Made by a program: the position numbers and the translations under genes. The notes under the pieces were generated by a model. That model did no database searches and had not been told where the DNA came from. It was given only the letters and a program-made list of their open reading frames with translations. This document shows positions 37,131 to 62,916 of a DNA stretch of 64,000 bases, piece after piece (the stretch's first letter is position 1; each line of letters begins with the position of its first letter). The DNA lies in assembly GCA_040772045.1 (NCBI GenBank), contig JAXGYV010000006.1, positions 8,260-72,259 of the forward strand, written 5' to 3'. This DNA is from Thermoleophilia bacterium (GTDB lineage Bacteria > Actinomycetota > Thermoleophilia > UBA2241).

Positions 37131-37206
37131 GGCGGGGTAGCTCAGTTGGTAGAGCACATGACTGAAAATCATGGTGTCGACGGTTCAATTCCGCCCCCCG
37201 CCACCA
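37131..37206 (+). tRNA. tRNA-Phe (GAA)
   Basis: Acceptor stem GGCGGGG/CCCCGCC, D arm AGCTCAGTTGGTAGAGC, anticodon arm CATGA-CTGAAAA-TCATG, T loop GTTCAAT and encoded CCA; 76 nt. Confidence 0.97.
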
Positions 37207-37550
37207 CACCAAATTTCCGCAAGACGACGTGCCTTCCGGCGTTCGCCGTGTTTACGAGCTTTCACCACGTGGCGGCTCGGGAGAGGCCGGCGTGAGCATG
37301 AGCGCGGTCCGCGTGGCGCTGGCGGGGGCACAGGTCGCAGTCAGATAGGCGTTCTAAGGCTATCGCGGCGCGCGCTGCACCCCCGTACGGTGAAGCTCCA
37401 GATATGCCGGCTCAAACGCGTGCACAGTATGCGGAGTGTAACGCCGTCGGTGCGGATCTTAGCCGGCATGGTCGAGTAGACTGCAGCGCGAGCGCGGTAG
37501 CGCGGCATGTGCCGGCCAGTGTGGCGAGGGGCCAGAAGGGGTGCGCAAGA

Positions 37551-38927
37551 ATGCTCTTCGAGCGCTTCGAAGCGTCAGGGTTGGCGCACTACTCGTACCT
37601 CGTGGGAGATGGTACCGCGGCGGCGGTGATCGACCCGCGGCGCGATGCCGCTGTTTATCAGCGGGTCGCGCTGCGGAACGGCATGCGCATTACGACTATC
37701 TTGGAGACACATCGCCACGAGGATTTCGTGAGCGGGTCAGTAGAGCTCGCGAGCCGTACGGGGGCTCGCATCTACCACGCCGATGCGCAGCTCGCGTATG
37801 CCTACGGAGAGCCAACGACGGCGGGACAACGGTTCCCGGTTGGCCGTCTCGCCCTTGAAGCTCTTGCCACTCCTGGCCATACACCGGGCTCGGTCGCCTA
37901 TCTGCTGTACGATCCCAAAGGCAGGCTCTGGATGGCGTTTTCTGGAGACACGCTGTTCGCGGGAGATGTGGGCCGGGTGGATCTGGTCGAGGGGGGTGAT
38001 CCCCTGGCCATGGCAGAGCTGCTCTACGACTCTCTCCATCGGCGTCTGCTCCCGCTCGGTGACGAGGTAATCGTCTGTCCCGCTCACGGCGCGGGGTCGG
38101 TGTGCGGAGTGGCGATCGCAGAGCGCATGATCACCACTATTGGACTGGAACGTCGCTTCAACCCGAGGCTCCAGCTTGACCGGAGTGCGTTCCTGCGGGA
38201 GGCGAGTGCGACACATCACCGACCACCGTACTTTCGCCGTGTCGAGTTACTGAACGTTCGCGGCGCACCGCTGCCGCGGTGGTTCCCGCTGCCAGAGATA
38301 CTCTCTTCCGAGCGATTTGCCGCGGCGCTTGCGAACGGTGCGGCAGTACTCGACGTGCGCAGCGAGCTGGCGTTCGGCGCTGCTCATATCCCCGGGGCCA
38401 TCTCCATTGGTCTGTCGCGTGTGTCGCGGTATGTCGGCTCGCTCGTGCCGCTTGAGTCGCCGCTCCTCCTGGTCGGTGAAGGTGATCAGATCGTAGCGGC
38501 CGCGTGCGAGCTCGTTCGACTGGGCTACGATCAAGTGGTGGGCTCGCTCGCTGATGGCATGAGCGCCTGGAGTCAAAGCGGTCGGGCGGTGGCCTCCGTC
38601 GACACTGTGAGCGTCCAGCAGCTCTGCGAGCTGCTGGACGACCGTGGCCCGGTCGCTGTGCTCGATGTGCGTACTACGGGCGAGACCCTCAGTGCTGGCG
38701 AGATCGAGGTGGCTACGCACATCTCTCTCGTCGAGTTACCGGTACGCCTGCAGGAAGTACCGCCGGGACCGCTGTACATCTTCTGCGGGAGCGGTGCTCG
38801 GGCGATGACGGCGGCGAGCGTACTGGCTGCCGCTGGCCGGCGCGATCTGCACGTCGTCCTGGGCGGCGTGACGGCGTGGCGTTCGGTTCGTTGCCCGCTG
38901 CGTTTTCCGGAGAGACCCCGACGCTAG
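37551..38927 (+). CDS. MBL-fold hydrolase with two rhodanese domains (persulfide dioxygenase/sulfurtransferase-like)
   Basis: ETHRHEDFVSG, TPGHT, GDTLFAGDVGR, PAHGAGSVCG, two LDVR motifs, HIPGA and FCGSGARA. Confidence 0.9.
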   Translation: MLFERFEASGLAHYSYLVGDGTAAAVIDPRRDAAVYQRVALRNGMRITTILETHRHEDFVSGSVELASRTGARIYHADAQLAYAYGEPTTAGQRFPVGRLALEALATPGHTPGSVAYLLYDPKGRLWMAFSGDTLFAGDVGRVDLVEGGDPLAMAELLYDSLHRRLLPLGDEVIVCPAHGAGSVCGVAIAERMITTIGLERRFNPRLQLDRSAFLREASATHHRPPYFRRVELLNVRGAPLPRWFPLPEILSSERFAAALANGAAVLDVRSELAFGAAHIPGAISIGLSRVSRYVGSLVPLESPLLLVGEGDQIVAAACELVRLGYDQVVGSLADGMSAWSQSGRAVASVDTVSVQQLCELLDDRGPVAVLDVRTTGETLSAGEIEVATHISLVELPVRLQEVPPGPLYIFCGSGARAMTAASVLAAAGRRDLHVVLGGVTAWRSVRCPLRFPERPRR

Positions 38928-39229
38928 ACGAAGAGGTCTTCGCCTACGAGCTGGCGTACGCGGAGCATGTCGAAGACCTGCGTCACGGCAGGAGTAAGGT
39001 TACGGATGCGCAGCGGAACTCCCCGCTGTTGCATGTCCAGGCAGAGCCTGACGAAGATGCCGGTACCCGACGAATCGACGAACCTGACGCCGCCGAAGTC
39101 CAGGGTGACGCCGGCGGGACCGGCCGCTTCCTGCACCGCCCAGCGAAGCGTCTCGGCGCAATCGAGGTCCATCTCGCCCTGTAGGTATACGACCGGCTCA
39201 GAGTCCTTCTCGATAATGGTATGGAGCAT
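38924..39229 (-). CDS. STAS-domain anti-sigma factor antagonist
   Basis: LQGEMDL, LDFGGVRFVDSSG (phospho-acceptor Ser) and V.QVFDML; GAGAGGA RBS. Confidence 0.92.
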   Translation of the reverse strand: MLHTIIEKDSEPVVYLQGEMDLDCAETLRWAVQEAAGPAGVTLDFGGVRFVDSSGTGIFVRLCLDMQQRGVPLRIRNLTPAVTQVFDMLRVRQLVGEDLFV

Positions 39230-39241
39230 CTGATCCTCTCG

Positions 39242-40051
39242 CTAGGTAGTCTGGTCCAGCAACAGTGTGGTGCCGGATGGGCACGTATGCAAGCTGATGC
39301 GGTCGATGTGCTCGAGGATGATCCTATACCCGTAGCCCATAGATGGCTGCATGCCGGCGGCGGGCTTGTCGTACCAGTTCAAGAAAGTGAGGCCAGGTCC
39401 AGTGTCGGCGACCACTACCCGTGCGGTGTTGGGGAGCTTGATGAGCGAGAGGCTGCCGACTCCTCCGCCGTGGATGAGGGTGTTGGTTGCCGCCTCGCAG
39501 GCGCCGAGGACCACGTGCTCGCGGGAGATCGCGGCGATGCCGAGGGCTTCCAACCCCGTGCTGAGGTGCTTGCGAGCTGCCGCCAGAGTCCCCGGTCCCG
39601 TGATCTCGCGGTAGAGCATCTGTTCGCCGCTCGTGAGCTCGGCGGCGAGCTGTGAGGCATCGAGGAATCGCAGTTTTCCGCAGGCTACTGCCGCCGCGAG
39701 GTCGCTCAGGATCTCGGAGAGGCTGCGGCGGTGGTCTCCGTGTGTTCGACGCCATCCGTTGCTGTGGATGCAAAGGACCTCGCAGTACTCACCGGAGGGG
39801 ATGAGGCACAACTCGTCGATATCACTGCCGGGGGTGGTCCGTACGATGAAGGCGCGGTGGGTCATGGCGTCGTGGGCGCGCGTCGCGATCTCGGCGCGGA
39901 GGCCGGGCGATGGATCGTTGCCCAGGACGGTGCGCAGAGTAGTGGTGCGCGCGTCGTAGCGGAGGACGCGGAGGGTGGCCGGGCGACCATCGTGACCCGC
40001 GACTGGTCCCAGCGGTATCTTGTGTGGCAGTGCGCTCGGGTGTGCTTTCAT
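39242..40051 (-). CDS. Anti-sigma factor-type Ser/Thr kinase (HATPase_c) with an unknown N-terminal domain
   Basis: N-box EAATNTLIHGG, G1 VADTGPG and G2 SMGYGY; start overlaps the upstream stop (ATGA). Confidence 0.82.
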   Translation of the reverse strand: MKAHPSALPHKIPLGPVAGHDGRPATLRVLRYDARTTTLRTVLGNDPSPGLRAEIATRAHDAMTHRAFIVRTTPGSDIDELCLIPSGEYCEVLCIHSNGWRRTHGDHRRSLSEILSDLAAAVACGKLRFLDASQLAAELTSGEQMLYREITGPGTLAAARKHLSTGLEALGIAAISREHVVLGACEAATNTLIHGGGVGSLSLIKLPNTARVVVADTGPGLTFLNWYDKPAAGMQPSMGYGYRIILEHIDRISLHTCPSGTTLLLDQTT

Positions 40052-41697
40052 GTGGTTTCGGAGAGGCGTACGAGGAGGAGTGTGGCGTCGTCGGTCGGCT
40101 CGTTGCCCTCACGGAATATATCGACCGTCCGCCAAGTTTCCTGGAGGATGTCTTCGAGAGATTTGTGTCGTAGCCCGAAAAGGAGCGTGCTCAGCCTCTG
40201 CACGCCGAATTGCTCGCCGTCCGCTCGCCGTGTCTCGGTTATTCCATCGGTGAACAGCGCGAGTACGTCGCCGGGCGCTGCCGCCACAGTATCCTCGGGG
40301 AAGTCGAGGTTGGGCCGCACGCCCAGCATGGGCCCTTGTGATGCTATGTGGCGGACTCCGGTCGCGTTCAGATGGAGCACGGGGTTGTGCCCGGCATTGG
40401 CCAGGGTGAGCGTACCGCGTACGGGATCGTAGAGGAGATAGACGGCGGTGAGGAAGTACGGCAGCTGCTGTCCCTCGAGGTCGCGGGCCAGTGAGTCGTT
40501 GACCTGGTGGAGGATCTCTCCCGGTCGTCCACCGGGTGCGGCCGCTTCGTGAACAACCGAGCGCGCCATGGCCATGATCAGCGCGGCCGCCAGACCCTTG
40601 CCCATCACGTCGCCGCAGACAATGCCCAGGCGGCCGTCACGGTAGGGGACGAAGTCGAAGTAGTCGCCGCCCATCTCACTCAGGAAGGCGATTCGATGGG
40701 CGATCTCGAGCCCTGCTACCTGTGGCGTTGTTTGGGGAAGCAGATCGATCTGGATGCGGCGCGCGCGCTCGATCTCCGCCGCCACCCTGCGCTGTGCGGT
40801 GCGCAGCTCATCATGGAGCTGTTCGGACGCCGCGAGCTCCTGGCGGAAGCTGGCGAGCTCCACTTTGTGCGAGGCTCGCTCGCGCGCGCGTGTTACGTAA
40901 ATGTCATAGGAGTAGTAGATGAGGAACAACGGTGGCAGGCCGAGCAGCAGTCCCGGCAGTCCGAGTTGCAAGTACAGCCATGCCACGAGGAGGGCGAGCG
41001 AGGCGCCTGTCAGGTAACTCGTGATGCCCCACTGGTAGTTGGTGCGCCATACATTTGCTGGTCGCTCGCCCGTAGAGAGACTGATCACTGTTGCCAGTAC
41101 GGTGGTGGTGATCAGGAAATCGAGGCCCGCGTACGCGTACGCGGGCAACACGATGGTGCTGAATGCGTCGCCTTGCCCGACGAGTACCTCGTATACGTGG
41201 CCTGCCAGAAAAGTGGCGAGTACGAAGTTGCCGATGTTCAGCGTGACCTTCAATGGGTCGCGGGTGAGCCACAGCGCGCCGCCGCCCGACACCGCGGCCA
41301 CGAGCATGGCGGGCCAGATGCCGAAGACGATCAGGGTGGCCAGCGTGGGCACAAAGGAGAGCGTGATCACGCCCACGCCGGGAAGCCGTACCTCGCGCAG
41401 GTCGGCCACGGTAGCCATGGCCATGAATCCGAGGACGGCGAGCGGGAATGGTTCGCTCCACGCGCTGCCGGCGATCACCAGGCAGGCGATGGCGGTCAGG
41501 CCCACCAGACAGACGAAGACGGGGACGGCCGCGCGATGTCGCGTGGCCGTCCCCGTCTGTTCCGCGGTGTGGGTTGCGGCTACTGCCCCTGGAGCAGCGT
41601 GGTCCAGCGATATCGGGTCCACCGATACCTGGTCCACCTGTACCTCGTCCAGCGATACCTCGTCCACCGATACCTGGTCCACTTGTACTCGTTCCAA
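40048..41697 (-). CDS. Multi-TM membrane sensor fused to a SpoIIE/PP2C phosphatase (start uncertain, 41505-41697)
   Basis: About 7 hydrophobic helices, a coiled coil, ARRIQIDLLP, GGDYFDF, GDVMGKG, NAGH, FTDGITE and DDATLL. Confidence 0.9.
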   Translation of the reverse strand: MERVQVDQVSVDEVSLDEVQVDQVSVDPISLDHAAPGAVAATHTAEQTGTATRHRAAVPVFVCLVGLTAIACLVIAGSAWSEPFPLAVLGFMAMATVADLREVRLPGVGVITLSFVPTLATLIVFGIWPAMLVAAVSGGGALWLTRDPLKVTLNIGNFVLATFLAGHVYEVLVGQGDAFSTIVLPAYAYAGLDFLITTTVLATVISLSTGERPANVWRTNYQWGITSYLTGASLALLVAWLYLQLGLPGLLLGLPPLFLIYYSYDIYVTRARERASHKVELASFRQELAASEQLHDELRTAQRRVAAEIERARRIQIDLLPQTTPQVAGLEIAHRIAFLSEMGGDYFDFVPYRDGRLGIVCGDVMGKGLAAALIMAMARSVVHEAAAPGGRPGEILHQVNDSLARDLEGQQLPYFLTAVYLLYDPVRGTLTLANAGHNPVLHLNATGVRHIASQGPMLGVRPNLDFPEDTVAAAPGDVLALFTDGITETRRADGEQFGVQRLSTLLFGLRHKSLEDILQETWRTVDIFREGNEPTDDATLLLVRLSETT

Positions 41698-43148
41698 CGC
41701 TCATATGTATCGGCAGGAAGGATGGAATCCCCTGAGCCGACTTTCTCTGAGAGCGTGTACCCGGTGGCCGTGAGTGTCGAAGAGAGGGCGCCGGGGACGT
41801 CGACGATGCCGGCGCCCTGTTGGTACGTGGTAGCTCCGGGCAGGGGATCGGCGGTCGCCATGAGGCGGAGCTTCACGTCGTCCGGAGTGAGATCCGGCTG
41901 TTCGTCGAGCATCAGAGCGACAATGCCGCTCACGACTGGCGCTGCCGTACTGGTGCCCGAGAGCACGAAGTACTGCGGGGAGGCGGTAGGAGGAGCGCCG
42001 GTGATGTACTCAGATACGGCGAGCCGGTTCTCGGGGAAGAAGCGGTCCACGTAGCTGCGTGGCGAGCGCAAAGATACGTTGCGGTTACCGGGGGCCACCA
42101 GGTCTGGCTTGGCGATCTCATCGAACATGGTGGGACCCGCCGAACTGTAGCCGGCGACTGTGTCGTCGGCGGAAGCGAACGTCTGCCGGGTATCCGTGGC
42201 GCCGACAGTAATCACGTACGGGTCGTTACCGGGAGAGAGGATGCCGCCCGATCCAAACTCGCCCTCGTTACCGGCGGCGCAGACCACGACGATGCCCGCC
42301 TTCCAGGCGGCCTCAACGGCTTGAGCCATCGGGTCCGTCTCGACGGGGCCCACTACATCGCCGCCGAGCGACAGGTTCAGGACACGGATGTCGTAGCGCT
42401 CTCTGTTGGCGATGGTCCAGGCGATAGCCCGAATAACGTCCGATTCACGGCCCGTGCCGAACTTGTCCAGGACCTTCAGGGACACAATGTCCGCTTCCGG
42501 CGCCACGCCGCGGTACTGGCGAATCGCGCTCCCGCCTTGATCGAGGGGGAGAGAAGCGCTGCCGTTGCCGGCGATGAGGCCGGCGACGAAGGTGCCGTGC
42601 CCGGCGTCGTCGTAGGCGCGGCGACGATTCTTCACGAAGTCCTTGAAGGCCAGCAGACGCAGCGTGCCGTCAGCATCGCGAAGGTCTGTGTGCGTGCTGA
42701 GGCCGCTGTCGATGATGGCCACGGTAACGCCATCGCCGGTAGGCCCATCTTGCCACGGTGGCAAGATGGCGGGCAGGCCGATGGCGAAGTTGGTGAAGCT
42801 GAGCGAGTCCGTCCAGCCGATGCCCACCACATCGTCGTCGGCCCGAATGCTGGCAACGCTGGGGAGGTTTGCGAGCGTTGTTATCTGGTCCGCGGTGAGC
42901 TCGGCGGCTACGGCGTTCAGGAGTGGCAAGCGAACGGCTTCGGTATTTCCGAGGTACGAGGTGACCTTGTCGAGGCGATCCGTGCTGAAGACGATCACGG
43001 GGATGGTGGCGCCGGGTACGTCCTTCATCGTTGTGGCGACGTCGGTATCTATCGGCGCGCGGCGCGCGGCCCACGCGGTTCCCGCGGTGAGTAGAAGCAC
43101 GAGCAACAGGATCGCAAGCCCTGCAGCGACTCGCGAGCTGGCCTTCAT
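41580..43148 (-). CDS. Secreted S8 (subtilisin/AprX-like) serine peptidase with C-terminal WTRYR repeats
   Basis: Signal peptide ending AWA, a propeptide, catalytic triad IIDSG / GHGTFVAG / SGTSTAAP and oxyanion AAGN; GGGGAGG RBS. Confidence 0.95.
   Translation of the reverse strand: MKASSRVAAGLAILLLVLLLTAGTAWAARRAPIDTDVATTMKDVPGATIPVIVFSTDRLDKVTSYLGNTEAVRLPLLNAVAAELTADQITTLANLPSVASIRADDDVVGIGWTDSLSFTNFAIGLPAILPPWQDGPTGDGVTVAIIDSGLSTHTDLRDADGTLRLLAFKDFVKNRRRAYDDAGHGTFVAGLIAGNGSASLPLDQGGSAIRQYRGVAPEADIVSLKVLDKFGTGRESDVIRAIAWTIANRERYDIRVLNLSLGGDVVGPVETDPMAQAVEAAWKAGIVVVCAAGNEGEFGSGGILSPGNDPYVITVGATDTRQTFASADDTVAGYSSAGPTMFDEIAKPDLVAPGNRNVSLRSPRSYVDRFFPENRLAVSEYITGAPPTASPQYFVLSGTSTAAPVVSGIVALMLDEQPDLTPDDVKLRLMATADPLPGATTYQQGAGIVDVPGALSSTLTATGYTLSEKVGSGDSILPADTYERWNEYKWTRYRWTRYRWTRYRWTRYRWTRYRWTTLLQGQ
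41604..41696 (-). repeat. 15-bp tandem repeat encoding WNEYK-(WTRYR)x5-W
   Basis: Units are tggaacgagtacaag, tggaccaggtatcgg, tggacgaggtatcgc, tggacgaggtacagg, tggaccaggtatcgg, tggacccgatatcgc, then tgg. Confidence 0.97.
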
Positions 43149-43313
43149 AGTCGCCTCCCCGCCGGCTTGACTTCGGCGGCCGGCCCGCCTCCGGTTGAGT
43201 GTCGTGCACGTTCAACGGGGACGCGAGCGCCGTGGCGATGCGGCATCGCGACGGCGCTCTCGTAGGAGGAGTTCGTGCACACGGACTCCCACGACGCATG
43301 CCTCGTTGCTTCC

Positions 43314-43340
43314 TTATCGGCAATCGCGGGCGTGTCCTGA
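43314..43340 (-). promoter_or_regulatory. Putative sigma28 (FliA/SigD/WhiG-type) promoter of the S8 peptidase operon
   Basis: Minus strand TCAG-N15-GCCGATAA: an exact consensus -10 with canonical spacing and an imperfect -35. Confidence 0.6.
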
Positions 43341-43517: not shown

Positions 43518-46039
43518 TTGGGAAAGGGTGTCGAACAGAGAGGCGTGAGGATAGAAAGGCGCAGGACACTCCGTGGGCGCCGCCGCGTCTGCGTCGCACG
43601 GAGGCACACACCGTTGCGACGCGCCGCACTGCTGACGCTGGCGGCGTGTATAGGTCTGGTAGCCGCGGCCTGGGGGGCTCCACGGATCAGCACCGCTGTG
43701 GCCGGGTGGACCAAAGCTGCTCCGGTACGGGGCTGCAAGATGGCGGTGCCACTGGTACCGCGGCGGCCAGCCCCGAACGCCGCCGCGCGCTCGGGTCTTC
43801 CAGGTCCCCCCGTGAGTCCGCCGGGAACGCGCGGGCGTTTGGACCCTGGCTGGCGCTTCAACGCGGTTGGCGTTGTGTGCGATGGGTTGCCGGCGGGGAG
43901 CCCGATGCCCGAGGTCGAGGTACGAACGAAGAACGACGATGGGTCGTGGTCGGCTTGGCGCGCTCTGACGTTCGAGGTCGCCGACTCCGAGAGTGGCGTG
44001 GCCGGGCGCTTAATGGCTGAGCTGCTGTGGGTCAAAAGGGGGCGCTCGCTCGACTACCGCATCGTGGCGGCTCCGGCGAGCGCCAAGTTGGACATCTCCT
44101 TCATCAATACCGCGGGCGACGCCACCGGTACGGACCGTGTAGTGGGCGCTCTGCGTACCGTTGTCGCAGCCATCTCGGGCGTCCCCCTGGTGCCGGCCGC
44201 GAGCGCCGCGCCGGCCATGCCGAAGATCATGACGCGGAGGGAGTGGGGTGCCAACGAGCGGTGGCGAGACGGGGAGCCGGACTACGCGCTGGTGAAGATG
44301 GCTTTCGTCCACCACACGGTGAGTGGCAACAACTACACCAGGCAGGGGGGCGCAGGAGTCGTACGGGCCGTGTACTGGTACCACACACAGTCTGCCGGAT
44401 TCCGCGACATCGGCTACAACTTCCTCATCGATAAGTACGGCCAGATCTACGAGGGTCGCTACGGCGGCATCCGGGAGGGTGTCATCGGCGCGCAGACCCT
44501 GGGCTTCAACACCAGCTCTACTGGCGTGGCGCTGGTGGGCACTTTTTCCAGCGTGTCGCCGCCGCCGGCCATGCTGGGCAGTCTGCGGGCGTTGCTTGCC
44601 TGGAAGCTGGACGTGCACCACATTAACCCGCTGTCCAAGGCCAAGATGCTCTGCCGCGCATCTGATCGTTTTAGGGCGGGCACGACCGTGTGGTTGCCCG
44701 CCATCTCTGCCCATCGCACTGCCTGTTATACGGCTTGTCCTGGAAACGGGATGTATGCCCGTATGGCTTGGCTGCGCAAGGCCGTGACGGCGCGCGGTCT
44801 GCCCAAGATCTACGCCCTCTCGGTCTCGCCGGCGGTGTTGAGCCCCACGGGCGATGGTGTGCGCGATACCGTCAGCGTTCGCTACACCATATCGGAGGCG
44901 GCCAGTTGGACGGTCACCGTCAGCGATGGCGCCGGGACGCTGGTACGCAGCTTCGACGGGCAAGGCGCCACGGCGGTAAAGGTGGTTTGGGATGGCCGCG
45001 ACGATCAGGGCGCGGTGGTGCCCGATGGAACCTACGTGATTACGGGGAACGCACAGACGCCCAGCGGACGAAAGGCGAGCCCAGGCGTGCAGGCCGTGAC
45101 GGTAGATACGGTGCCCCCGGAGTTCGAGCAGTTGAGGCAGAGCGCCACGGTCGTCAATCCGCTGGGCACTGGGGCTGGCGACCGGGTCGCCGTCTCCTAT
45201 GTGTTGAACGAGCCGTGCAGTGTTCGGGCGGTGGTTCGCTCGGCAACCGGCGAGACGGTCCGTGAGCTGGCGGGTATGAGCAGCCTTCACCAGGGGCCGC
45301 GTTCGGTAACCTGGGATGGCAAGATCGTTTCGGACGGTCGGACGGTGGCGGCGCCGGAGGGCGTGTACACGATCGTGGTGCTGGCCTCGGACGCTGCCGG
45401 CAATGCGGGAAGCGCTTCGGCGGAGGTGAGGGTGGATCGCACCGTGAGGGTTACGGGGGCGCAGCCCATCTACTTCTCGCCGAACGGCGACGGCCGGCAA
45501 GACATCGCTACCGTCCCGTTCGCCCTGCTTCGTGCGGCGGATGTGGTGGCGACGGTGAAACTGGGCAGTACGGCGGTTCGCAGCATGCCCATGGGCCGGC
45601 TCGAGGCCGGTGCTCACTCGCTCGACTGGGACGGCACCCGCGCCGACGGAACGGTGGTGTCGAGCGGCGGGCTGTACACCGTCGTGTTCGAGGCCACGGG
45701 CGACGCGATTGAGTCGCGTGCCGCGGGGCGCGTGATCGTCGATCGCCGGGGGCCGTACTTCAAGCTGGGGGCGGGAGTGACCGTGCGGCGCTCGACGACC
45801 GCTCGCATGTACTACGCGGTGTATGACCAGCGCAGTCCGCGGCCCACGTGACCGTGGTCGTTCGCCGCTCGGGAGTGGTGGCGAAGCGTCTGGATTTGGG
45901 TTGGTTACGTACTGGTACCAGACTGCGGTTCTCCTACACCCCGCCGAAGGCTGGCGTTTATGTAGCTACGTTTACCGCGGTTGACCTGGCCGGTAATCGC
46001 CAGCAGGCGCCGGCCTACTGGCGTGTGAACTCGCGGTAG
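43518..46039 (+). CDS. Secreted N-acetylmuramoyl-L-alanine amidase (Amidase_2/PGRP-like) with repeated FlgD Ig-like domains; apparent frameshift near 45842
   Basis: FVHHTVS, DIGYNFLIDKYGQIYEGR, GAQTLGFN and HR...TACPG; three WDG..G..V.DG.Y modules. ORF 45848..46039 continues the beta-rich tail. Confidence 0.85.
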
Positions 46040-55900: not shown

Positions 55901-58900
55901 ATGGGTCGGGGAGTCTTCTCTGGGCGGGCGCTGCGTTGTGCTCATCGTGGGCTCGCGTTCGCACTTTCCTTTGTTCTCATCGTGGTCTTGCTGGGCGTTC
56001 TTGCTCTCTGCTCACAGAGAGCCGCCGCGGCCCAGCCCAGTGTAGTGCGCGAGCTCACCAAGCTGCGCGGCGAGAGCTCCACGACCTATGAGCTCTCCGA
56101 CGGCAGTCTGCGCAGCGAGTTCTTCTCCTCGCCGATCCGCTTTCGCGATGCCGCCGGCGCCTGGCGGGCCATCGATACGCGTCTGCTGAGCGATGCCAAG
56201 AGTGGCGAGTACGTGGCCGCCGCCATGCCTTTCGCCGTGCGCCTCGGCGCCGCGCGGCCGCAGGTACGTCTCGGCGCCGACCGCTACGAGCTCTCTCTAC
56301 AGCCGCGCGGGTTGGCCTCCAAGGCGGCCGTGGTGCTTGGCGATCTAGCTACCTACCCGGCAGTGGCCGTAGACACCGATCTTCGCTACCAGGTACTCGC
56401 TGAGGGCGTCAAAGAGGAGCTGCTGCTGGCCTCGGCCGCCGCGCCACGGCGCTTCAGCTTCTCGCTCGCTCACCCCGGCCTTACCTTGCGGTACGACCTT
56501 CAAGAGGGCTGGGGGCTCTACGCCGAGAACGCCAAGCAGCCGCTGTTCGTGCTCGGCGGCCTGTGCGTCTTCGACTCCTCGGTCAGCAAGGCCGGCGAGC
56601 CCGCCTACTGCGCCGGGGCGACCATGAAGGTGAGTGTGGGCCGCGAGGAGAGCACTATCACCTACGAGGTGCCCGAGGCGTGGGTGAACGCTTCCGAGCG
56701 CGTGTTCCCCATCCACATCGACCCCACTATCACGTTCGGCCAGTCCTCCTGTACCGACACCTACGTCTCCTCGGCCTTTCCGGATACCGCCTACGCGGGC
56801 TCGCAGGAGCTCAAGGTCGGCCGCTACGACGCCTCCACCGGGCACAACCGCACGCTGATCAAATTCGATCTCTCGAGCATCGCCGGCCACTACGTGCCCA
56901 CCGCGCAACTCCACATGTACCAGTTCCATCAGTACTACTACAGTCAAGCAATGACCACGCACATCGGGCTGCTGCGTGAAACCTGGGGACAGGGCACCAC
57001 CTGGAACATCCTGGCCGACAATGGCGGCCACGAGTTCGATTGGTGGAAGGATGTCGCGGTGGCTCGCGGGGAGTGGATGGAGCCTACCGCTCGCATCCCC
57101 ACCCAGGAATGGGTCGAGGGACGCTGCGCTAACTACGGCTTCATCGTCTACCAGACCACCAGCGAGGACGCCACGTACTGGCGGAAGTTCCGCTCGCGCG
57201 AGTACGGTACCAGTAGTTACCGTCCCTCCCTGGAGGTCACCCACGAGACTCCGCAGGCCACCTCGGTCGCCGATGCGCCGCGCTACCGTACCGGCGACAC
57301 GGTGACCGCCACGGTAACCATAGGCAGCACCGTCAACGCGAGCCAGACGCGTTCCGTGCAGGTGGGCGTGAATGCCACCGACAGCGATACCTCGCGTTTG
57401 CGCGGCGTGCTGGGCTGGTTCAGCTACGACCCCAGCCTGGATACTCGCGATCCTCATCGCAACTCCTGGGTGAGGATTCCCGGCTCGCCGGCGGGTTTCT
57501 ACTACGACTCGCAGGCGACCGGCGCGGACGCTATCGAACCGCTGGCGGAGTGCACCAAGAACTCCTCTACACAGTGCACGTTCCGCTTCCGCATCCGGCA
57601 AGGTTTCGGCGAGATCCAAGACAACGACCTCGACACCCGCCTGAAGATGGACCCCCTCGCCGACAGCAGCCCCGCTTGGGATAGCGGGTGGGTGCACCGC
57701 GACACCAACTTCGACATCCTGCCCAACGACGCATTCCACACCAGCGCCGATCTGGGAGAGTGGGCCGGACACGCGGCCTCGGCGCAGCTTGACCGGGGCG
57801 GCTTGTGCCTTGCCACGAGCGACCTAGACATCGCCTCCTGGGGCCCCAGCGCCGCCCTTGCCCGCAACTACGACTCAGGCCGCACGACTGCCGGCGCCTT
57901 TGGCACCGGCTGGCGCTTCTCGTTTGAGCGCAGCCTGACCATCGGTACCGCCGAGACCGTCTACGTGGATGAAGCTGGCGATCAGCACCGCTTCACCAAG
58001 ATCGATGGCGTTTGGCTCGCGCCCACCGGCTGTTTTGCCACGCTCGCCCAGAGCGGCGATGGGTGGACACTCACCGAGACCGACAAGAGCGTGCTGAGAT
58101 TCGACTCCGCCGGCAAGCTTACGAGCGAGGCCGACGCCAACGGCAACACGACAACGTACGCCTGGTCGGGCGGCGACCTGACCTCGATTACCGCCGCTAA
58201 CGGCCAGTCCATCAGCGTGACCATGAGCGGCGGTGTGATCTCGGCGGCCAGCTACGCCACCGCCGCCGGCACGCGCACCGTCAACTACACAGCCGGCGCT
58301 ACGCCCTCGGTGACTTACTTCCCCGGCCAGGCGGAGGAGCGCGCCGTCAGCTACAGCTACTCCGCAAGCCGCCTGTCGGCGATCACCCAACAGGGCTGGC
58401 CGACCACTGGCCAGAGCGTCTCCGAGTCCTTCCTCTACACCGACGGTGTTCTCACCGAGGTTCGCTTCCCCGACTACGACGCAACCAGCAAACCCGATGC
58501 TCGGGCGGGCATCGTCTACGGCGAAGCGGAGGCGACCATCAGCCGCTACGGTACGGTTGGCGGTCAGGCGGGCCAGGCCTGCGATGTTGTCAAGTATGCT
58601 TGGGAACCGCTGAGTGGCGCTGTCGTCAGCGAGATCCGTAACCCGGCGGTCGCGGACCTTAAGTTGAGCACTACCTACCAGTACGGCGAAGATCTTCAGG
58701 TGGTAAAAGAGAGCTCCAAGGATGGCGACAACACCCTGCTTTCTACAGTAGAGAGCGACTACGATGCACAGGGCAACCTCGTCGAGCAAGTTGAGCAGCG
58801 CGATGAGGAACTGGCTACTACATTCGAGTACGAGGCGGGCAATGATCAGCCGATCTCTGAGGAGACCACACACGATGCCCAGTGTGTCTCTCAGACCGAT

Positions 58901-61900
58901 AACGACTACGATGCCGACGGTAACCTCACTAGCAGCGTGGAGGCGATCTCCGGACAGAGCAGCGCCCTGAGCCAGTACAGCTACGGCGATGTCTCTGTCG
59001 GCTCATCGCTGTACAGGGGCGCCCAAGTACAGCAGCGCGGCAAGATCAGTGCCGGCCCCGATGTCTGGGCGCAGACCGACTTCGCCGACTTCGCCGCCAA
59101 TGGCGAGCCGCGGAGCACCACCTACCGCGATGTGCTGCGCAGCTACGGCGGTACCGCATCGGATTTGACCGAGACCGCCACCTACGACGCCTTCGGCAAC
59201 CGCCTCTCCAAGACCGATACCTCGGGGACTACCACCGAGACCAACACCTACGATCTGGCTGGTCGGCTGCTGACGAGCACCGATGCCAAGGGCGTGACTA
59301 CCCATCATCTCTACGATGCGCTTGGTAACGAGATCGAGAGCTGGCAGAGCGTGTCTGGCAACGATGCGAAGAACAGCTGGACGAAGTCGGTCTACGATGC
59401 CCGAGGTCATGCCACCGGCCAGACCACACTGCTCTGGGATGCCCAACACCCCAATGGACAGACACAGAAGACGATCGTTACCACCTACGACGGTGTCGGC
59501 AATCCGACAAGCGCCAGCGACTCGACGGTCGGCGGCGAAGACGAACGCTGGATCTACGATATGCAGGGCAACATCACCAGCCACTGGGAGATGGGCGTTG
59601 CCAGCTACGACACGGTGCGAGCAACCCGTTCTACCTACGATGAGCAGGGCCAGCAGGTCAGTGTGACTGCGCCCGGTGAGTCGGCGGCGACCACCTATAT
59701 CTACGATCTGGCCGGCAACGTAGTATGCCAGATCAACCCCGACGGTAGCCGCATCATCAGCTGTTACGACGCCGAGGGTAACAAGACGGCGGAGAAACGC
59801 ACCCTGGAAGGCTACGATCCCAACACTAACCCCACGGCGGTAGCGACGACGAGCTACACCTACAACACCGGTGATCAACTCGTCTCAACGACATCGTCCG
59901 GCGGCCTGACCACTACCTATACGTACGATCTGCTCGGCCGCCAGATTGAGGCGGGTGGCTCGAGTCTGACCCTCAACAGCCTAGGCTGGGAGCTGCGTAG
60001 CCTGGATGCCGACGGTATCGCCATCAGCAAGAGCTACAATATCGCCGGGCGGATTACCAGCGAGGCGCAGGGCAGTCGCGATACCGCCTATGCCTATAAC
60101 GCCAGCGGACTGCTGGCGAGCGAGACGATCGTCAACACCGCTCCGAACCCGGATGAGGAGCTCTCGAAGGTAAGCTACGCTTACGATACTTTCGGCAACC
60201 TAAACCACGAGACGCACACTCGGCCTGGCGATCCCAACCCTGTCACGCTGAAAGACGTCGCCACCACCTACGACTCGCTAGGGCGGCCGGATGAACGTGT
60301 AGATACCGTCTCCGGTCGCCAGCAGAGCTGGAGCTATCCGCTTAACGAGGCCACCGGCACGCAGGAGAGCGAAAACTATGGTTCTGCCACGCCGGTAGTA
60401 ACCCAGATCGCCCGCAACGCTCGCGAGCAGGAGAGCACCCGTACCACTACCATCGCCGCTGGGCAGACCGTTACCCGAACGATCACCGATCGCGATAACG
60501 CCGAGCGCTGGACCACCGCCACCTTGGGAAGCCTCTCCTTTGGGCGCAACTTCAACGGCGCCTCTCAGCTCAATGGGCAGTCGGGTGCCGGCTTTACCGC
60601 CGCCGGCTCTTATAGCTACGATGCCGCCTCGGGCCGCAAGAGCACCGAGAACCTGCCGCTTGCCCTCGCGGGAACGCTCTCTTCCAGCTATGCCTACGAT
60701 GCTACCGGCAGACTGGAGAGCTCCTCCGCCGGCGGCCTGACCGCCACCACCTTCGACTCCGCCGGCAACCTGACCGCCTTTACCGATGCCGGCGGCTCGG
60801 CCAGCCTGACCTACGATGCCGCCAATCGTCTTACGCAGATGAGTTACGGCGCCGCCACCACCCACTACGGCTGGGATATCGCCAACGGCTGGCGCACGCA
60901 GCAAGGACCTTCCGCCGACCCCGACCGCGAGCGCTTCTCCTACACCGCCAGCGGTCGTCTAGCGGGCTATGCCAACGACGCGAGTGGCCTCACCGCCAGC
61001 TATGCCTACGATGGCGGCGGGCAGCGCATCCGCTCCGAGATCACCCAGGGCACCACCACGACAACCACCACCTACCTCTACGAGGGTCTGAGCCTGCGCA
61101 GCCTCTCGGCGATCCGGGGCGAGACAAGCTGGCGCATCGACTACCTCTACGATGAGGAAGGAGTTCCTTACGCCGGATCTACCGCAGCCCCGCTTCCTCA
61201 GTCAGCCCGGTGCTCTTTGCTCTTATCACCTCCGAGCGCGGCGATGTACTCGAGCTGCTGGACAGCAACGGCGATGCCTTCGCCGCCTACCGCTACGATG
61301 AGTGGGGTAACCCCATCGGTGCGGGCAACTACGCCACCGGCATCTGGACGCAGGCCAGCTCTGTGGTGAACTCCACCCTGGCCGGCCAGATCGCCTCTCG
61401 CCAGATCCTGCGCTATGCCTCCTATGCCTACGATGCCGAGAGCGGCCTCTACTATCTCTCCGCCCGTTCCTACGATCCGCTCACCCGCCAGTTCATCAGC
61501 AAGGACCCGGCCAAGGCCGATGGTGAGGAGAGTGCCTATCAGTACTGCGGTGGGGAGCCGGTGACGTTCATCGATCCGACCGGCGAGTCGTGGTACAACC
61601 CGTTCTCATGGAGATGGGTGAAGAAGATTCCGCCGGAGGTCAAATGGTCGGTGTGGCCATATCGTTTCTACAAACTTGTAAAGGAGGTGCAGACATTTTG
61701 CACAATCGAACGCGATGTCTATAGGACATCTGCTGCCGAGAATGCACGCAAGGCGAGATATGAGTTTGAGAAACGGAAGTCGCGTGATCCTCAAGCTGTA
61801 TATGAGGAGATTTTCGGATATAACGGCGATTCATATTTGCGACCTGACGGAACGTCGAAACTTGCCTCGCTGTCAACGAGTCGGATAATCGGCTGGGCGC

Positions 61901-62025
61901 AAGTGTTTTCGAGCGAATATAAGCGTTGGCATGCATCACGCAACTACATAGTTGCTCACAAAGTATATCACAAGAAGGTCGTTTCATTCTGGAAGTCTGT
62001 GACAATATACATTTCCCTTTGGTGA
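55901..62025 (+). CDS. Secreted Rhs/YD-repeat polymorphic toxin (WapA-like, with DNRLRE-type domain); frameshift near 61175
   Basis: N-terminal TM/signal, FPIHIDPT, DTYVSS, G.FGTGWRFSFE and many YD..G repeats. The core YRYDEWG...YDAESGLYYL.ARSYDP..RQFISKDP...PVTFIDPTG is in the next frame. Confidence 0.9.
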
Positions 62026-62073
62026 GAGAAAAGAAAGACAGTAAGCATGATGACTGCTATGAGTGATAAGTGA

Positions 62074-62661
62074 ATGATTACTTCCTTGAATAGATGGAGT
62101 GCAAAATCGATATATGGTGGAGTCCTGCTTGCGCTCGTTGCTATAGGTGTTATCATTCTGCTCCTATGGCATTTATCCAGGGGATCTCTGGAGGTCCGTA
62201 GACTAGTTGCTGGCGATCACGTGCTTCTGCAGTCCGGCTTATCGTTTGTCGTGCCAGAAGACATGTCAGGTACGTGGTCATCTTGGCATTCCGATAGTCG
62301 GGATAGTAGCTCGGGAGGACTCGCTGAGTCGATAGTCTTCGACAGCGCGCGGCACCACAGCGTTCCTCCTGCTATCGATGTCTACTCGCACTGCGGTAAG
62401 CAGTCCACGTCTCTACGCATGGTCCTTCGGCAGAGACTTGTTTCGCGCTCGAAAGATAGAACCACCGAGATACGCTGGATGCCGCCTCATACGGACGTGT
62501 ACAACGTCTTCGTGATTGTTCGTCTTGACAGACATCTTCCATGCGTAGTGATGATCTCGGCACCGAACGCGACTAGCCCCGCCGGTGCGTGGAAAGTGGT
62601 GGCTGAGTTGTGGCGGCGGCTGGATGTCCTAGGCGTTTCGGTTCCACCTCGGCCGGAGTAG
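62074..62661 (+). CDS. Putative immunity protein with an N-terminal TM helix
   Basis: Immediately downstream of the Rhs C-terminus, in the same visibly AT-richer patch; hydrophobic GVLLALVAIGVIILLLW. Confidence 0.55.
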   Translation: MITSLNRWSAKSIYGGVLLALVAIGVIILLLWHLSRGSLEVRRLVAGDHVLLQSGLSFVVPEDMSGTWSSWHSDSRDSSSGGLAESIVFDSARHHSVPPAIDVYSHCGKQSTSLRMVLRQRLVSRSKDRTTEIRWMPPHTDVYNVFVIVRLDRHLPCVVMISAPNATSPAGAWKVVAELWRRLDVLGVSVPPRPE

Positions 62662-62916
62662 TCAATCCTAGCGTGTTCCATGATGCTCCTATACACACTG
62701 TCATGTCCTTGGATGGCTCGCCGACCGACGCTCAGCGTCCGATACACCTCACAACACCGTCCTTCGTACGAGGAATGATCTGCATGACTCGCATGAATTT
62801 TTGAAGGTGATGCGAATGAGGCGAGATCGGCACGATGGACCGTGCAAGCATGCGTGGAGAAGAACGGCATCGCAGGCAGGCGCGGCGAGCGTGACGTAAT
62901 GGTTACTAGGAGACGC

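What the first reader, a model, noticed from the sequence alone, without database searches (positions are those of the whole stretch)
38924..43340. Candidate self-encoded peptide signalling system: secreted subtilisin with a (WTRYR)5 tail, membrane sensor phosphatase, anti-sigma kinase and STAS protein
Seen: four co-oriented, touching or overlapping genes. The first is a signal-peptide S8 protease with an intact D/H/S triad ending in WNEYK(WTRYR)5WTTLLQGQ. It is followed by a roughly 7-TM protein with little extracellular domain fused to a PP2C/SpoIIE phosphatase, a HATPase kinase and a STAS protein. Established: PP2C, kinase and STAS form RsbU/W/V-type partner switches, subtilisins autoprocess, and multi-copy precursors yield short signal peptides. 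Inference: the protease carries and releases several copies of its own pentapeptide, which the intramembrane sensor reads, making a one-gene signal-plus-maturase quorum or protease-activity sensor. Alternatives are an Arg/Trp cationic antimicrobial or surface-binding tail. I do not recall a characterised system of this design.
Basis: partly seen in the sequence, partly recalled or inferred. Interest (0 to 1): 0.92.

Follow-up and report, generated by a model that had tools for sequence, protein, structure and literature searches.

The report
Secreted protease paired with membrane sensor
A secreted subtilisin-type protease with a tail of tryptophan-spaced five-residue repeats sits directly in front of a membrane sensor gene, and the same protease-plus-sensor pair recurs across many actinobacteria with different signalling outputs, which suggests a so far undescribed way for bacteria to sense their surroundings.

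Summary
On the minus strand lie an S8 protease (41580-43148) ending in WNEYK(WTRYR)5WTTLLQGQ, a MASE9-type membrane domain fused to a PP2C phosphatase, an anti-sigma-type kinase and a STAS protein.

The tail is a family trait, not a strain oddity. All 157 retrieved homologs carry 4-32 W-x4 units. Across the phylum, S8 proteases with such arrays (consensus W-[ST]-G-x-[ST]) sit a median 73 nt upstream of a homologous membrane domain (hhalign 97.8%). That domain is fused to different outputs: GAF-GGDEF-EAL, histidine kinase, or PP2C here. Of 56 sensor loci that did not seed the search, 36 had the protease plus array directly upstream.

Release of pentapeptide signals is not shown. The array pattern resembles a Trp-centred pentapeptide repeat with a conserved starter segment, which favours a folded domain. 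The cationic antimicrobial reading fails, because the charge is not conserved outside this family.

Best reading (about 0.5): the protease with its array is the dedicated outside partner of the MASE9 sensor and here drives a partner switch. I found no description of this pairing in five literature searches and term searches of the preprint that defines MASE9. Interest is high, and the mechanism remains open.

The parts
41580..43148 (-). Secreted S8 subtilase, 522 aa, made as a pre-pro-enzyme
   Evidence: Peptidase_S8 at 169 bits. The catalytic D147, H184, S400 and the oxyanion N294 are invariant. AF2 gives a confident catalytic domain and an N-terminal beta-alpha propeptide-like domain at residues 35-103. 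The best NCBIfam hit is mycosin at 163 bits, below its cut-off of 279.
43068..43148 (-). Probable Sec signal peptide, residues 1-27, ending AWA
   Evidence: Read from the sequence. AF2 places a helix at residues 4-21. No signal-peptide predictor was run.
41607..41696 (-). Trp-pentad array: WNEYK plus five WTRYR units (residues 485-514)
   Evidence: The units differ only at synonymous sites. No insertions or deletions were seen in the contigs of the four runs laid.
41583..41606 (-). Conserved C-terminal end WTTLLQGQ (family consensus WT[ILVT]L[ILT][EQD]GQ)
   Evidence: In relatives its last codons also provide GAGGGG plus GTG, which overlaps the stop codon, in the phosphatase reading frame.
41518..41557 (-). 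GC-rich stem-loop (13-bp arms) between the S8 stop and the phosphatase's first membrane segment
   Evidence: The consensus fold of 19 loci has 9 pairs, 4 of them with compensatory changes. It has no T tract and is not called a terminator by the simple scan.
40048..41505 (-). MASE9-PP2C membrane phosphatase (485 aa counted from GTG 41505; the start is uncertain and could lie up to about 41622)
40861..41505 (-). Polytopic membrane sensor domain (MASE9 type) with conserved DLREVRLP, TRDPxK..FN and WRxNYQW motifs
   Evidence: Hydropathy and conservation. PF20972 at 25.5 bits, and 20 of 21 orthologs match. hhalign against the distant sensors gives 97.8%, E 9.5e-13.
40063..40638 (-). PP2C/SpoIIE catalytic domain
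   Evidence: PF07228 at 176.5 bits. The GDVMGKG, DG.TE and DDAT motifs are invariant.
39242..40051 (-). HATPase_c_2 kinase (anti-sigma type), 269 aa with an unassigned N-terminal half
   Evidence: PF13581 at 31.5 against 27.4. RsbA family at 40.8 bits, below its cut-off of 210. Its ATG overlaps the phosphatase stop codon.
38924..39229 (-). STAS anti-sigma-factor antagonist, 101 aa
   Evidence: STAS_2 and STAS hits. TIGR00377 at 54.3 against 53.45. The FVDSSG motif is present.
43518..45851 (+). Divergent neighbour: Amidase_2 plus FlgD_ig cell-wall hydrolase, conserved beside the cluster within the family only
   Evidence: Pfam hits. Present within the fetched flank in 19 of 21 family loci.

Best explanation
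This is an operon for a protease-coupled partner switch. Its first two genes are one instance of a phylum-wide two-gene sensory module.

Proposed sequence of events:
1. The S8 subtilase is exported, sheds its propeptide and is catalytically active.
2. Its C-terminal array of Trp-spaced pentads is a folded repeat domain, probably a beta-helix-like variant of the pentapeptide repeat.
3. The lineage-specific surface of that domain couples the protease to the MASE9 membrane domain encoded by the next gene.
4. The protease is therefore the outside input device of a sensor that has almost no outside part of its own.
5. A change at the protease is passed to MASE9. The change could be substrate load, envelope state or trimming of the array.
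6. MASE9 then changes the activity of the fused PP2C phosphatase.
7. PP2C dephosphorylates the STAS protein.
8. Unphosphorylated STAS binds the kinase/anti-sigma protein, and a sigma factor encoded elsewhere is released.

Shown: gene content, intact catalytic motifs, conservation of the array, and conserved tight pairing with the membrane domain across different output domains.

Inferred: the fold of the array, physical contact between protease and sensor, the nature of the signal, and the direction of the switch.
For: The array is a trait of the whole protease clade:
- All 157 retrieved homologs carry it, with 4-32 units.
- All 53 proteins found with the array alone are S8 proteases.
- All 11 real arrays found by a DNA pattern in 401 genomes of the phylum are S8 C-termini.

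Pairing within the window's family:
- The order S8 > MASE9-PP2C > kinase > STAS holds in 21 of 21 loci.
- Both genes are present in 28 genomes and both absent in 5. Two of the five are 98% complete.

Pairing outside the family:
- 10 of 11 distant S8-array genes are followed by a polytopic protein. Its membrane domain is homologous to the window's (hhalign 97.8%, E 9.5e-13).
- The outputs of nine are GAF-GGDEF-EAL in four, GAF-GGDEF at a contig end in one, histidine kinase in three, and a truncated ORF in one. The tenth sensor was found later; its output was not scanned.
- In the reverse direction, 12 of 16 and 24 of 40 non-seed sensor loci from published genomes have the S8 plus array directly upstream.
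- The S8 stop lies a median 73 nt from the first membrane-profile codon in 46 loci. Stop/start overlaps are frequent.

Specificity:
- Six genomes hold two pairs each, and the commonest pentad differs between the two pairs in all six.
- Units differ more at synonymous than at non-synonymous sites: pN/pS is 0.21 in the family and 0.44 and 0.47 in the two distant sets.

Signs of a folded domain:
- The consensus W-[ST]-G-x-[ST] matches the pentapeptide-repeat pattern with Trp in the central position.
- PF00805 gives sub-threshold hits in 3 of 20 and Pentapeptide_3 in 2 of 20.
- A non-uniform starter segment is conserved across lineages.
- AF2 draws beta strands over a long array, at low confidence.

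Partner-switch parts.
Against: - No result shows contact between the protease and the sensor.
- The fold of the array is not established. AF2 gives pLDDT 32-49 for the window's tail and 50-55 for a long array.
- No array reaches the Pentapeptide gathering score, and the window's own array gives no hit at all.
- The window family's unit WT[KR][FY]x has a second aromatic residue where the classic repeat has a small one.
- Roughly a third of sensor loci have no such protease upstream. The membrane domain can therefore work without it, or with an unlinked partner.
- A strong stem-loop follows the S8 stop within the family. This could mean unequal expression rather than a one-to-one complex.
- Some arrays are near-identical in DNA (L169, L173). 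Uniformity can therefore also come from recent expansion.
- No sigma factor gene lies in the cluster.
Confidence: 0.5

Rival explanations
1. The array is a polyprotein of identical pentapeptides. The protease cuts them from its own tail, and the MASE9 domain reads them in or at the membrane. The result would be a self-contained autoinducer or protease-activity sensor.
For: - The array sits on an active protease and runs to the very C-terminus. 24 of 45 distant proteins end one residue after the last Trp.
- Units are kept identical in protein while their codons differ. Examples: six WTKYA units in five DNA versions with pN 0, and 19 WTGGT units in 12 versions.
- The pentad differs between lineages and between two pairs in one genome. 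That is what signal specificity would predict.
- The sensor has almost no outside domain. The authors who defined MASE9 suggested that its ligand binds within the membrane (passages read).
- In the window family, W-T-K-[FY] followed by a variable residue reads like a subtilisin P4-P1 site followed by P1'. The specificity rule is recalled, not tested.
Against: - No cleavage product or cleavage logic was shown.
- The commonest units elsewhere (WSGTS, WTGAS) do not carry that substrate-like pattern.
- Irregular units are interspersed at regular intervals in many arrays, for example WTKFK-WTKFK-WTGVD.
- A conserved non-uniform starter segment precedes the uniform units.
- W, S/T and G are fixed across the phylum, as expected for a fold.
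- There are weak pentapeptide-repeat and beta-helix signals.
Confidence: 0.15
2. The array is a cell-envelope anchor that binds wall polymer or the membrane interface and only keeps the protease at the surface. The sensor is linked by regulation or by shared physiology such as envelope stress. There is no direct coupling between the array and the sensor.
For: - Trp-rich C-terminal repeats are typical of surface-binding modules (recalled).
- In the window's family the units are cationic.
- A cell-wall amidase is a conserved divergent neighbour in 19 of 21 family loci.
- The protease has no membrane anchor of its own.
Against: - The array occurs on no other kind of protein. All 53 hits are S8, all 11 real arrays are on S8, and there is only one array in the window's genome. 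General anchors such as LysM or SLH are shared among many secreted proteins (recalled).
- The charge is not conserved across the phylum.
- The array-bearing protease is tied to one membrane domain whatever the output.
- Paralogous pairs in one genome keep different pentads. A common wall ligand would not require that.
Confidence: 0.2
3. The adjacency is inherited gene order with no functional meaning, and the tail is a tolerated low-complexity extension.
For: All family loci are related by descent, so 21 of 21 is not 21 independent observations. The neighbouring amidase is conserved as well.
Against: - The pair persists across many families of the phylum while the output domains and flanking genes change.
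- The genes downstream of STAS are not conserved even within the family.
- Both genes are lost together.
- The units are under purifying selection.
Confidence: 0.05

Closest known systems
SpoIIE-SpoIIAB-SpoIIAA and RsbU/RsbP-RsbW-RsbV partner switches (function recalled)
   Same: A PP2C phosphatase, a HATPase_c_2 kinase and a STAS protein with the DSSG serine motif lie in one tight operon. As in SpoIIE, the phosphatase is fused to a polytopic membrane region.
   Different: - The membrane region is MASE9, not the SpoIIE membrane domain.
- The TIGR02865 SpoIIE equivalog scores 21.6 bits against a cut-off of 490.8.
- No sigma factor gene is adjacent.
- A secreted protease gene precedes the operon and is inherited with it.
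MASE9 membrane sensor domain (PF20972; bioRxiv 10.1101/2021.11.05.467447, passages read)
   Same: The membrane domain reaches the MASE9 gathering score when scanned alone, and 20 of 21 orthologs match. Of 78 representative relatives, 42 match MASE9. Their outputs include HD/HD-GYP, GGDEF, histidine kinase and SpoIIE, so the domain is as promiscuous as described.
   Different: The paper lists HD-GYP, HD-GYP-GAF-GGDEF and GGDEF-EAL partners. Term searches of its text found no 'protease', 'subtilisin', 'peptidase' or 'SpoIIE', and 'PP2C' only in the MASE10 section. The fusion to PP2C and the obligate-looking upstream protease are additions.
Mycosins (MycP), the subtilases of type VII secretion systems (role recalled)
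   Same: This is the best-scoring NCBIfam model for the window's protease and for three distant ones. Mycosins are a precedent for a subtilase that serves as a partner of a membrane complex.
   Different: Scores of 121-163 bits are far below the cut-off of 278.75. There is no C-terminal membrane helix; the Trp-pentad array stands in its place. No ESX genes were seen in the fetched flanks.
Pentapeptide repeat proteins (PF00805; Rfr, MfpA, Qnr; consensus A(D/N)(L/F)(S/T)(G) recalled)
   Same: Both have period five. Read as x-x-W-[ST]-G, the phylum consensus fits four of the five positions by residue type. There are sub-threshold hits to PF00805 and Pentapeptide_3, and weak hits to the PipB2 and PipB models over the array region.
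   Different: Trp replaces Leu/Phe in the centre. No array reaches the gathering score. The window's WTRYR units give no hit and carry a second aromatic residue. No fold was confirmed, and no solved structure matches.
S8-processed peptide signals: Phr pentapeptides cut by subtilisin, Epr and Vpr; yeast alpha-factor multi-copy precursor cut by Kex2 (recalled)
   Same: In both cases an S8 protease is associated with short peptide units, pentapeptides or tandem copies of one peptide.
   Different: In those systems precursor and protease are separate proteins, the spacers carry defined cleavage sites, and the receptors are unrelated. No processing is shown here.
Accessory outside proteins that control sensor kinases, for example DbfQ with DbfS (abstract seen in the listing)
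   Same: A secreted protein encoded next to a membrane sensor acts as its input.
   Different: Here the accessory protein is a 500-700 aa active protease with a repeat array. The partner is one membrane domain with interchangeable outputs.

Membership tests
Peptidase S8 (subtilases) | PF00082 at or above the gathering score | tested here: met
   169.2 bits against 21.8, covering residues 138-447.
Peptidase S8 (subtilases) | Catalytic Asp, His and Ser plus the oxyanion Asn | tested here: met
   D147, H184, S400 and N294 are invariant in 76 sequences. The same four residues are conserved in at least 90% of 20 distant proteins.
Mycosin (TIGR03921) | Score at or above the curated cut-off of 278.75 | tested here: not met
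   162.9 bits; distant relatives score 121-157 bits.
Mycosin (TIGR03921) | C-terminal transmembrane anchor (feature recalled) | tested here: not met
   The C-terminus is the Trp-pentad array and contains no hydrophobic helix.
MASE9 (PF20972) | Score at or above the gathering score of 24.3 | tested here: met
   25.5 bits when the membrane part is scanned alone, but 22.6 bits inside the long ORF. 20 of 21 orthologs match at E <= 0.01.
MASE9 (PF20972) | Eight predicted membrane segments, two of them short (from the paper) | tested here: inconclusive
   A plain hydropathy scan shows about seven segments, some of them short. No topology predictor was available.
PP2C / SpoIIE phosphatase (PF07228) | Domain score, and conserved acidic metal-binding motifs (the identity of the ligands is recalled) | tested here: met
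   176.5 bits against 25. D281, D299, D420, D472 and D473 are invariant in 21 orthologs.
SpoIIE proper (TIGR02865) | Equivalog cut-off of 490.8 | tested here: not met
   21.6 bits.
Anti-sigma kinase (HATPase_c_2, RsbW/SpoIIAB type) | PF13581 at or above the gathering score | tested here: met
   31.5 bits against 27.4. The RsbA family model scores 40.8 bits against a cut-off of 210, which is not met.
Anti-sigma-factor antagonist (STAS, TIGR00377) | Model cut-off, and the phosphorylatable Ser in the DSSG motif (motif recalled) | tested here: met
   54.3 bits against 53.45. The sequence FVDSSGTG is present.
Pentapeptide repeat (PF00805) | Score at or above the gathering score of 20.2 | tested here: not met
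   The window's protease gives no hit. The best distant array scores 19.7 bits. 3 of 20 match at E <= 1, and 2 of 20 match Pentapeptide_3.
Pentapeptide repeat (PF00805) | Right-handed four-sided beta-helix fold | tested here: inconclusive
   AF2 draws beta strands over the array at pLDDT 50-55. The window's tail scores 32-49. No solved relative was found.
Multi-copy peptide-signal precursor | The units are released as free peptides and are sensed | not testable with these tools
   This needs mass spectrometry and add-back assays.

The most novel reading that the evidence does not exclude
The Trp-pentad array is a self-carried polyprotein of lineage-specific pentapeptide pheromones. The subtilase releases them from its own tail, and the MASE9 domain reads them within the membrane. 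Paralogous pairs in one cell would then form insulated channels. This would be a one-gene signal-plus-maturase system, spread across Actinomycetota and wired to c-di-GMP, two-component and partner-switch outputs.
Probability: 0.15. Interest if true: 0.95.

Novelty: new variant of a known kind. Interest (0 to 1): 0.8.

Why it matters
MASE-type membrane sensor domains are widespread, but the signals of most of them are unknown. According to the paper read here, only one MASE9 protein has been studied experimentally (passages read).

A dedicated secreted protease that travels with one such domain, whatever the output, makes that question testable by ordinary genetics and biochemistry. It also defines a previously unnamed repeat, the Trp-centred pentads, which were found only on this protease clade.

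If the coupling is direct, it adds a class of protease-assisted sensing that feeds c-di-GMP turnover, histidine kinases and sigma-factor partner switches in many actinobacteria. The sludge and biogas-reactor lineage of this window is one of them.

Tried and rejected
Predictions and searches that gave no usable answer:
- Complex prediction of the membrane domain (alignment A3) with the tail (residues 457-522 of alignment A1) returned 'no answer' (score 0.00). I do not count it either way.
- AF2 of the window's protease gave no usable model of the tail. AF2 of a long array gave only low confidence. I ran no fold search on these models because the array parts are unreliable.
- A PDB sequence search with a 111-aa array gave one chance-level hit, E 9.8.
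- The ESM Atlas gave only weak look-alikes, hexapeptide-repeat clusters at 0.80, which is a lead only.
- The single-protein scan of genome contigs found only one full-length relative, L001. The other 20 loci were ordinary S8 genes matched up to about residue 450-469.

Readings I rejected:
- Cationic antimicrobial or teichoic-acid-binding tail: the charge is not conserved outside the family.
- The repeat as the N-terminus of the phosphatase in the other frame ((V/L)D(E/Q)V.. units). That frame is open only as a by-product of the repeat's composition, and it varies where the S8 frame is constant.
- The stem-loop as a canonical terminator: it has no T tract and the scan does not call it.

An error I corrected:
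- My first tblastn with the phosphatase used an out-of-frame query and gave weak or missing hits. The in-frame repeat found it in 21 of 21 loci.

Transcription:
- One RNA run held two short contigs on the S8 gene and none elsewhere. This is too weak to say anything about expression of any of the genes.

Ambiguous loci:
- L162 has a W array in a long ORF but no S8 profile hit. It is counted as 'without'.
- L178 has an S8 with only short, degenerate W pentads. It is also counted as 'without' in the 24 of 40.
- L136 and L145 end at contig edges and are counted as 'without'.

Literature:
- The searches for prior description were made, plus term searches inside the MASE9 preprint.
Figure S5 and the supplements of that preprint could hold architectures or neighbours that I could not see.

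Full report
**What is in the window.**
Four co-oriented genes lie on the minus strand.
- The first (41580..43148, 522 aa) is an S8 subtilase. Peptidase_S8 scores 169 bits, and D147, H184, N294 and S400 are invariant in 76 homologs.
- Its N-terminus reads as a Sec signal. AF2 models a confident propeptide-like domain and catalytic domain (mean pLDDT 85.7).
- The protein ends WNEYK(WTRYR)5WTTLLQGQ.
- The DNA repeat has period 15 and 82% matches. The five WTRYR units use four different DNA spellings that differ only at synonymous sites. The S8 frame is therefore the one under selection.
- A six-frame scan of the 1.92 Mb genome found no second array.
- The second gene is a polytopic membrane domain fused to PP2C/SpoIIE (176.5 bits).
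- The third is a HATPase_c_2 kinase. The fourth is a STAS antagonist that reaches the TIGR00377 cut-off and carries the DSSG motif.
- PP2C and kinase overlap by ATGA. Kinase and STAS are 12 nt apart.

**The S8/phosphatase junction.**
- The ORF list's TTG start at 41697 lies in another frame of the repeat. That frame is open only because of the repeat's composition.
- In about 15 of 22 related loci a GTG or ATG overlaps the S8 stop codon and is preceded by GAGGGG, which comes from the conserved ...EGQ end.
- The window has TAG there, so its start is uncertain. GTG 41505 is the first plausible start after the stop.
- A GC-rich stem-loop (41518-41557) follows the stop. It is seen in most family loci.
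- The consensus fold of 19 loci has 9 pairs, 4 of them with compensatory changes.
- It has no T tract and the scan does not call it a terminator. Its role is open.

**The tail is a family trait.**
- The 120 best homologs (51-68% identical, apart from a near-identical 99% hit, P0001; almost all from metagenomes; one named Thermoleophilia) all end in W-x4 arrays.
- With 37 more proteins from a search using the array alone, all 157 have 4-32 units, median 12. The consensus is W-T-K-[FY]-[AKR], and the end is mostly WT[ILVT]L[ILT][EQD]GQ.
- All 53 significant hits of the array-only search are S8 proteins.
- In many homologs units such as WTGVD, WTDVA or WTEYD are interspersed among the uniform ones.

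**Linkage within the family.**
- In 61 related genomes the protease occurs once per genome in 30 of 36 genomes of the window's family. At E <= 1e-60 it occurs in none of 24 genomes from other families of the class.
- In 21 of 21 fetched loci the order is S8, MASE9-PP2C, kinase, STAS.
- A divergent amidase gene is also conserved, in 19 of 21 loci. The genes downstream of STAS are not conserved.
- Full-length phosphatase orthologs are found in 28 of the 30 genomes with the protease. In the other two the protease lies at a contig end.
- Of the six genomes without the protease, five lack the phosphatase ortholog too. They include two that are 98% complete. The sixth has a fragment at a contig end.
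- These genomes are kin, so this may amount to few independent events.

**The membrane domain.**
- Scanned alone, it reaches the MASE9 gathering score (25.5 against 24.3). 20 of 21 orthologs match.
- MASE9 was defined as a promiscuous sensor domain with short outside loops. Its authors suggested that its ligand binds within the membrane (preprint 10.1101/2021.11.05.467447, passages read).
- That text contains no 'protease', 'subtilisin', 'peptidase' or 'SpoIIE', and 'PP2C' only in its MASE10 section.
- A profile search of 1.84 billion representative proteins found 2606 relatives at E <= 0.001.
- Of 78 of these that are at least 400 aa long, 42 match MASE9. Outputs: HD/HD_5 28, HisKA 22, GGDEF 21, receiver 8, SpoIIE 4, EAL 3.

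**The pair is phylum-wide.**
- A DNA pattern for four Trp-Thr words at pentad spacing matched 28 of 401 genomes of the phylum. Many matches were out-of-frame or short repeats.
- The 11 real arrays from published genomes are all C-termini of S8 proteases. Their units include WTGAS, WTGTR, WTGNT, WTGGT, WNGST and WSSSS.
- Ten of the eleven are followed at once by a polytopic protein. The eleventh stops at a contig end.
- Outputs of nine of the ten: GAF-GGDEF-EAL in four, GAF-GGDEF at a contig end in one, PAS- or GAF-HisKA-HATPase_c in three, and a truncated ORF with a weak MASE9 hit in one. The tenth sensor, behind L103, was found later; its output was not scanned.
- Their membrane domains share the motifs S-[FL]-S and R-x-P-x-x-K-x-x-F-N with the window's domain. 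They align to it profile-to-profile at 97.8% probability, E 9.5e-13, over 187 columns.

**The reverse test.**
- A profile of the distant membrane domains matched 148 of 401 genomes.
- Among the 30 best places, and leaving out five from unpublished genomes, 21 of 25 have an S8 with a W array directly upstream on the same strand. That is 12 of 16 without the nine seed loci.
- Of 40 further places with weaker scores, 24 have one. One more has an S8 with only short pentads.
- Together this gives 36 of 56 non-seed loci, counting two contig-edge loci as misses.
- The S8 stop lies a median 73 nt (range 12-1848) before the first profile-aligned codon of the sensor in 46 loci. Thirteen loci have ATGA, GTGA or TTGA at the stop.

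**What the array looks like.**
- Over 45 distant arrays, position 1 is always W. Position 2 is S 58%, T 20%, N 7%. Position 3 is G 76%. Position 4 is small or polar. Position 5 is S or T in 67%.
- Read as x-x-W-[ST]-G, this is the recalled pentapeptide-repeat consensus with Trp in the centre.
- PF00805 gives sub-threshold hits in 3 of 20 distant proteases (best 19.7 bits against 20.2). Pentapeptide_3 hits 2 of 20. The PipB2 and PipB models, whose proteins I recall contain pentapeptide repeats, hit one array weakly.
- The alignment of 20 distant proteases shows a conserved, non-uniform start (...W-D-G-x-x-W-x-G-x-S-W-S-G-G-x-W-N-G...) before the uniform units.
- AF2 draws beta strands over a 22-unit array at pLDDT 50-55.
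- No solved structure matches, and the Atlas look-alikes are weak.
- The window family's unit, with K/R at position 3 and F/Y at position 4, departs from this pattern and gives no Pentapeptide hit.

**Uniformity and specificity.**
- Within arrays, units differ far more at synonymous than at non-synonymous sites.
- Pooled values are pS 0.57 and pN 0.12 for 19 family arrays, 0.54 and 0.23 for 21 distant arrays, and 0.49 and 0.23 for 23 more.
- Examples: 11 WTKFA units in 4 DNA versions with pN 0, and 19 WTGGT units in 12 versions.
- Two arrays are nearly uniform in DNA as well (L169, L173), which indicates recent expansion.
- Six genomes in the sample hold two protease-sensor pairs each. In all six the commonest pentad differs between the pairs, for example WSGVR against WDGMS and WSGTS against WSGST.
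- This fits the pentad surface acting as a specificity determinant. It does not tell docking from released peptide.

**Weighing the readings.**
- The link between protease, array and MASE9 domain is strongly supported.
- I favour a folded array that couples the protease to the sensor (0.5).
It would best explain why every position is fixed within a lineage yet free between lineages.
- A plain envelope anchor with only a regulatory link gets 0.2, and mere inherited synteny 0.05.
- The co-fold job gave no answer and is not used.

**Context.**
- The stretch occurs nearly unchanged in sludge and biogas-reactor metagenomes from many studies. No copy-number change of the array was seen in the contigs laid.
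- Literature searches found no description of Trp-pentad tails on subtilases or of a protease partner for MASE9.

Noticed in passing
window 43518-45851 (+): A gene combining Amidase_2 (N-acetylmuramoyl-L-alanine amidase) with three FlgD_ig domains is transcribed divergently from the protease. It is kept beside the cluster in 19 of 21 family loci. I did not check whether it also accompanies the pair outside the family.
   Followed up: partly
window 37404-38927 (+): A metallo-beta-lactamase-fold protein with two rhodanese domains converges on the STAS gene, and the two ORFs share their last 4 nt (38924-38927). It is not a conserved neighbour in the 21 related loci.
   Followed up: partly
window 37131-37206 (+): A tRNA-Phe (GAA) gene lies between a TrkH-like membrane gene and the metallo-beta-lactamase/rhodanese gene.
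   Followed up: no
G000 contig C3:146587-148110 (-): The window's genome has a second gene with a MASE9-like membrane domain (E 1.7e-11 to the family profile). The genome scan found no array-bearing S8 apart from the window's own.
   Followed up: partly
L068 (G001:C1) and L070 (G020:C14): In two related genomes the protease reading frame is interrupted, by one TAA and by two TGA respectively. The repeat continues after the break. These may be decaying copies or assembly errors.
   Followed up: no
L116, L119, L120 (distant S8 C-termini): Some distant proteases continue past the array with a shared motif...YDEFLTAFWG..., followed by a Pro- and Arg-rich end. 24 of 45 others stop one residue after the last Trp.
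   Followed up: no
window 58000-64000: G+C falls from about 0.66-0.73 to 0.58-0.62 at the right end of the window, and the GC skew changes sign near 56 kb.
   Followed up: no
window 41580-41700, phosphatase reading frame: Each repeat unit also spells AGG, a short spacer and GTG in the phosphatase frame. The array therefore carries several potential ribosome-binding-site-plus-start combinations ahead of the sensor gene. Whether any is used is unknown.
   Followed up: no
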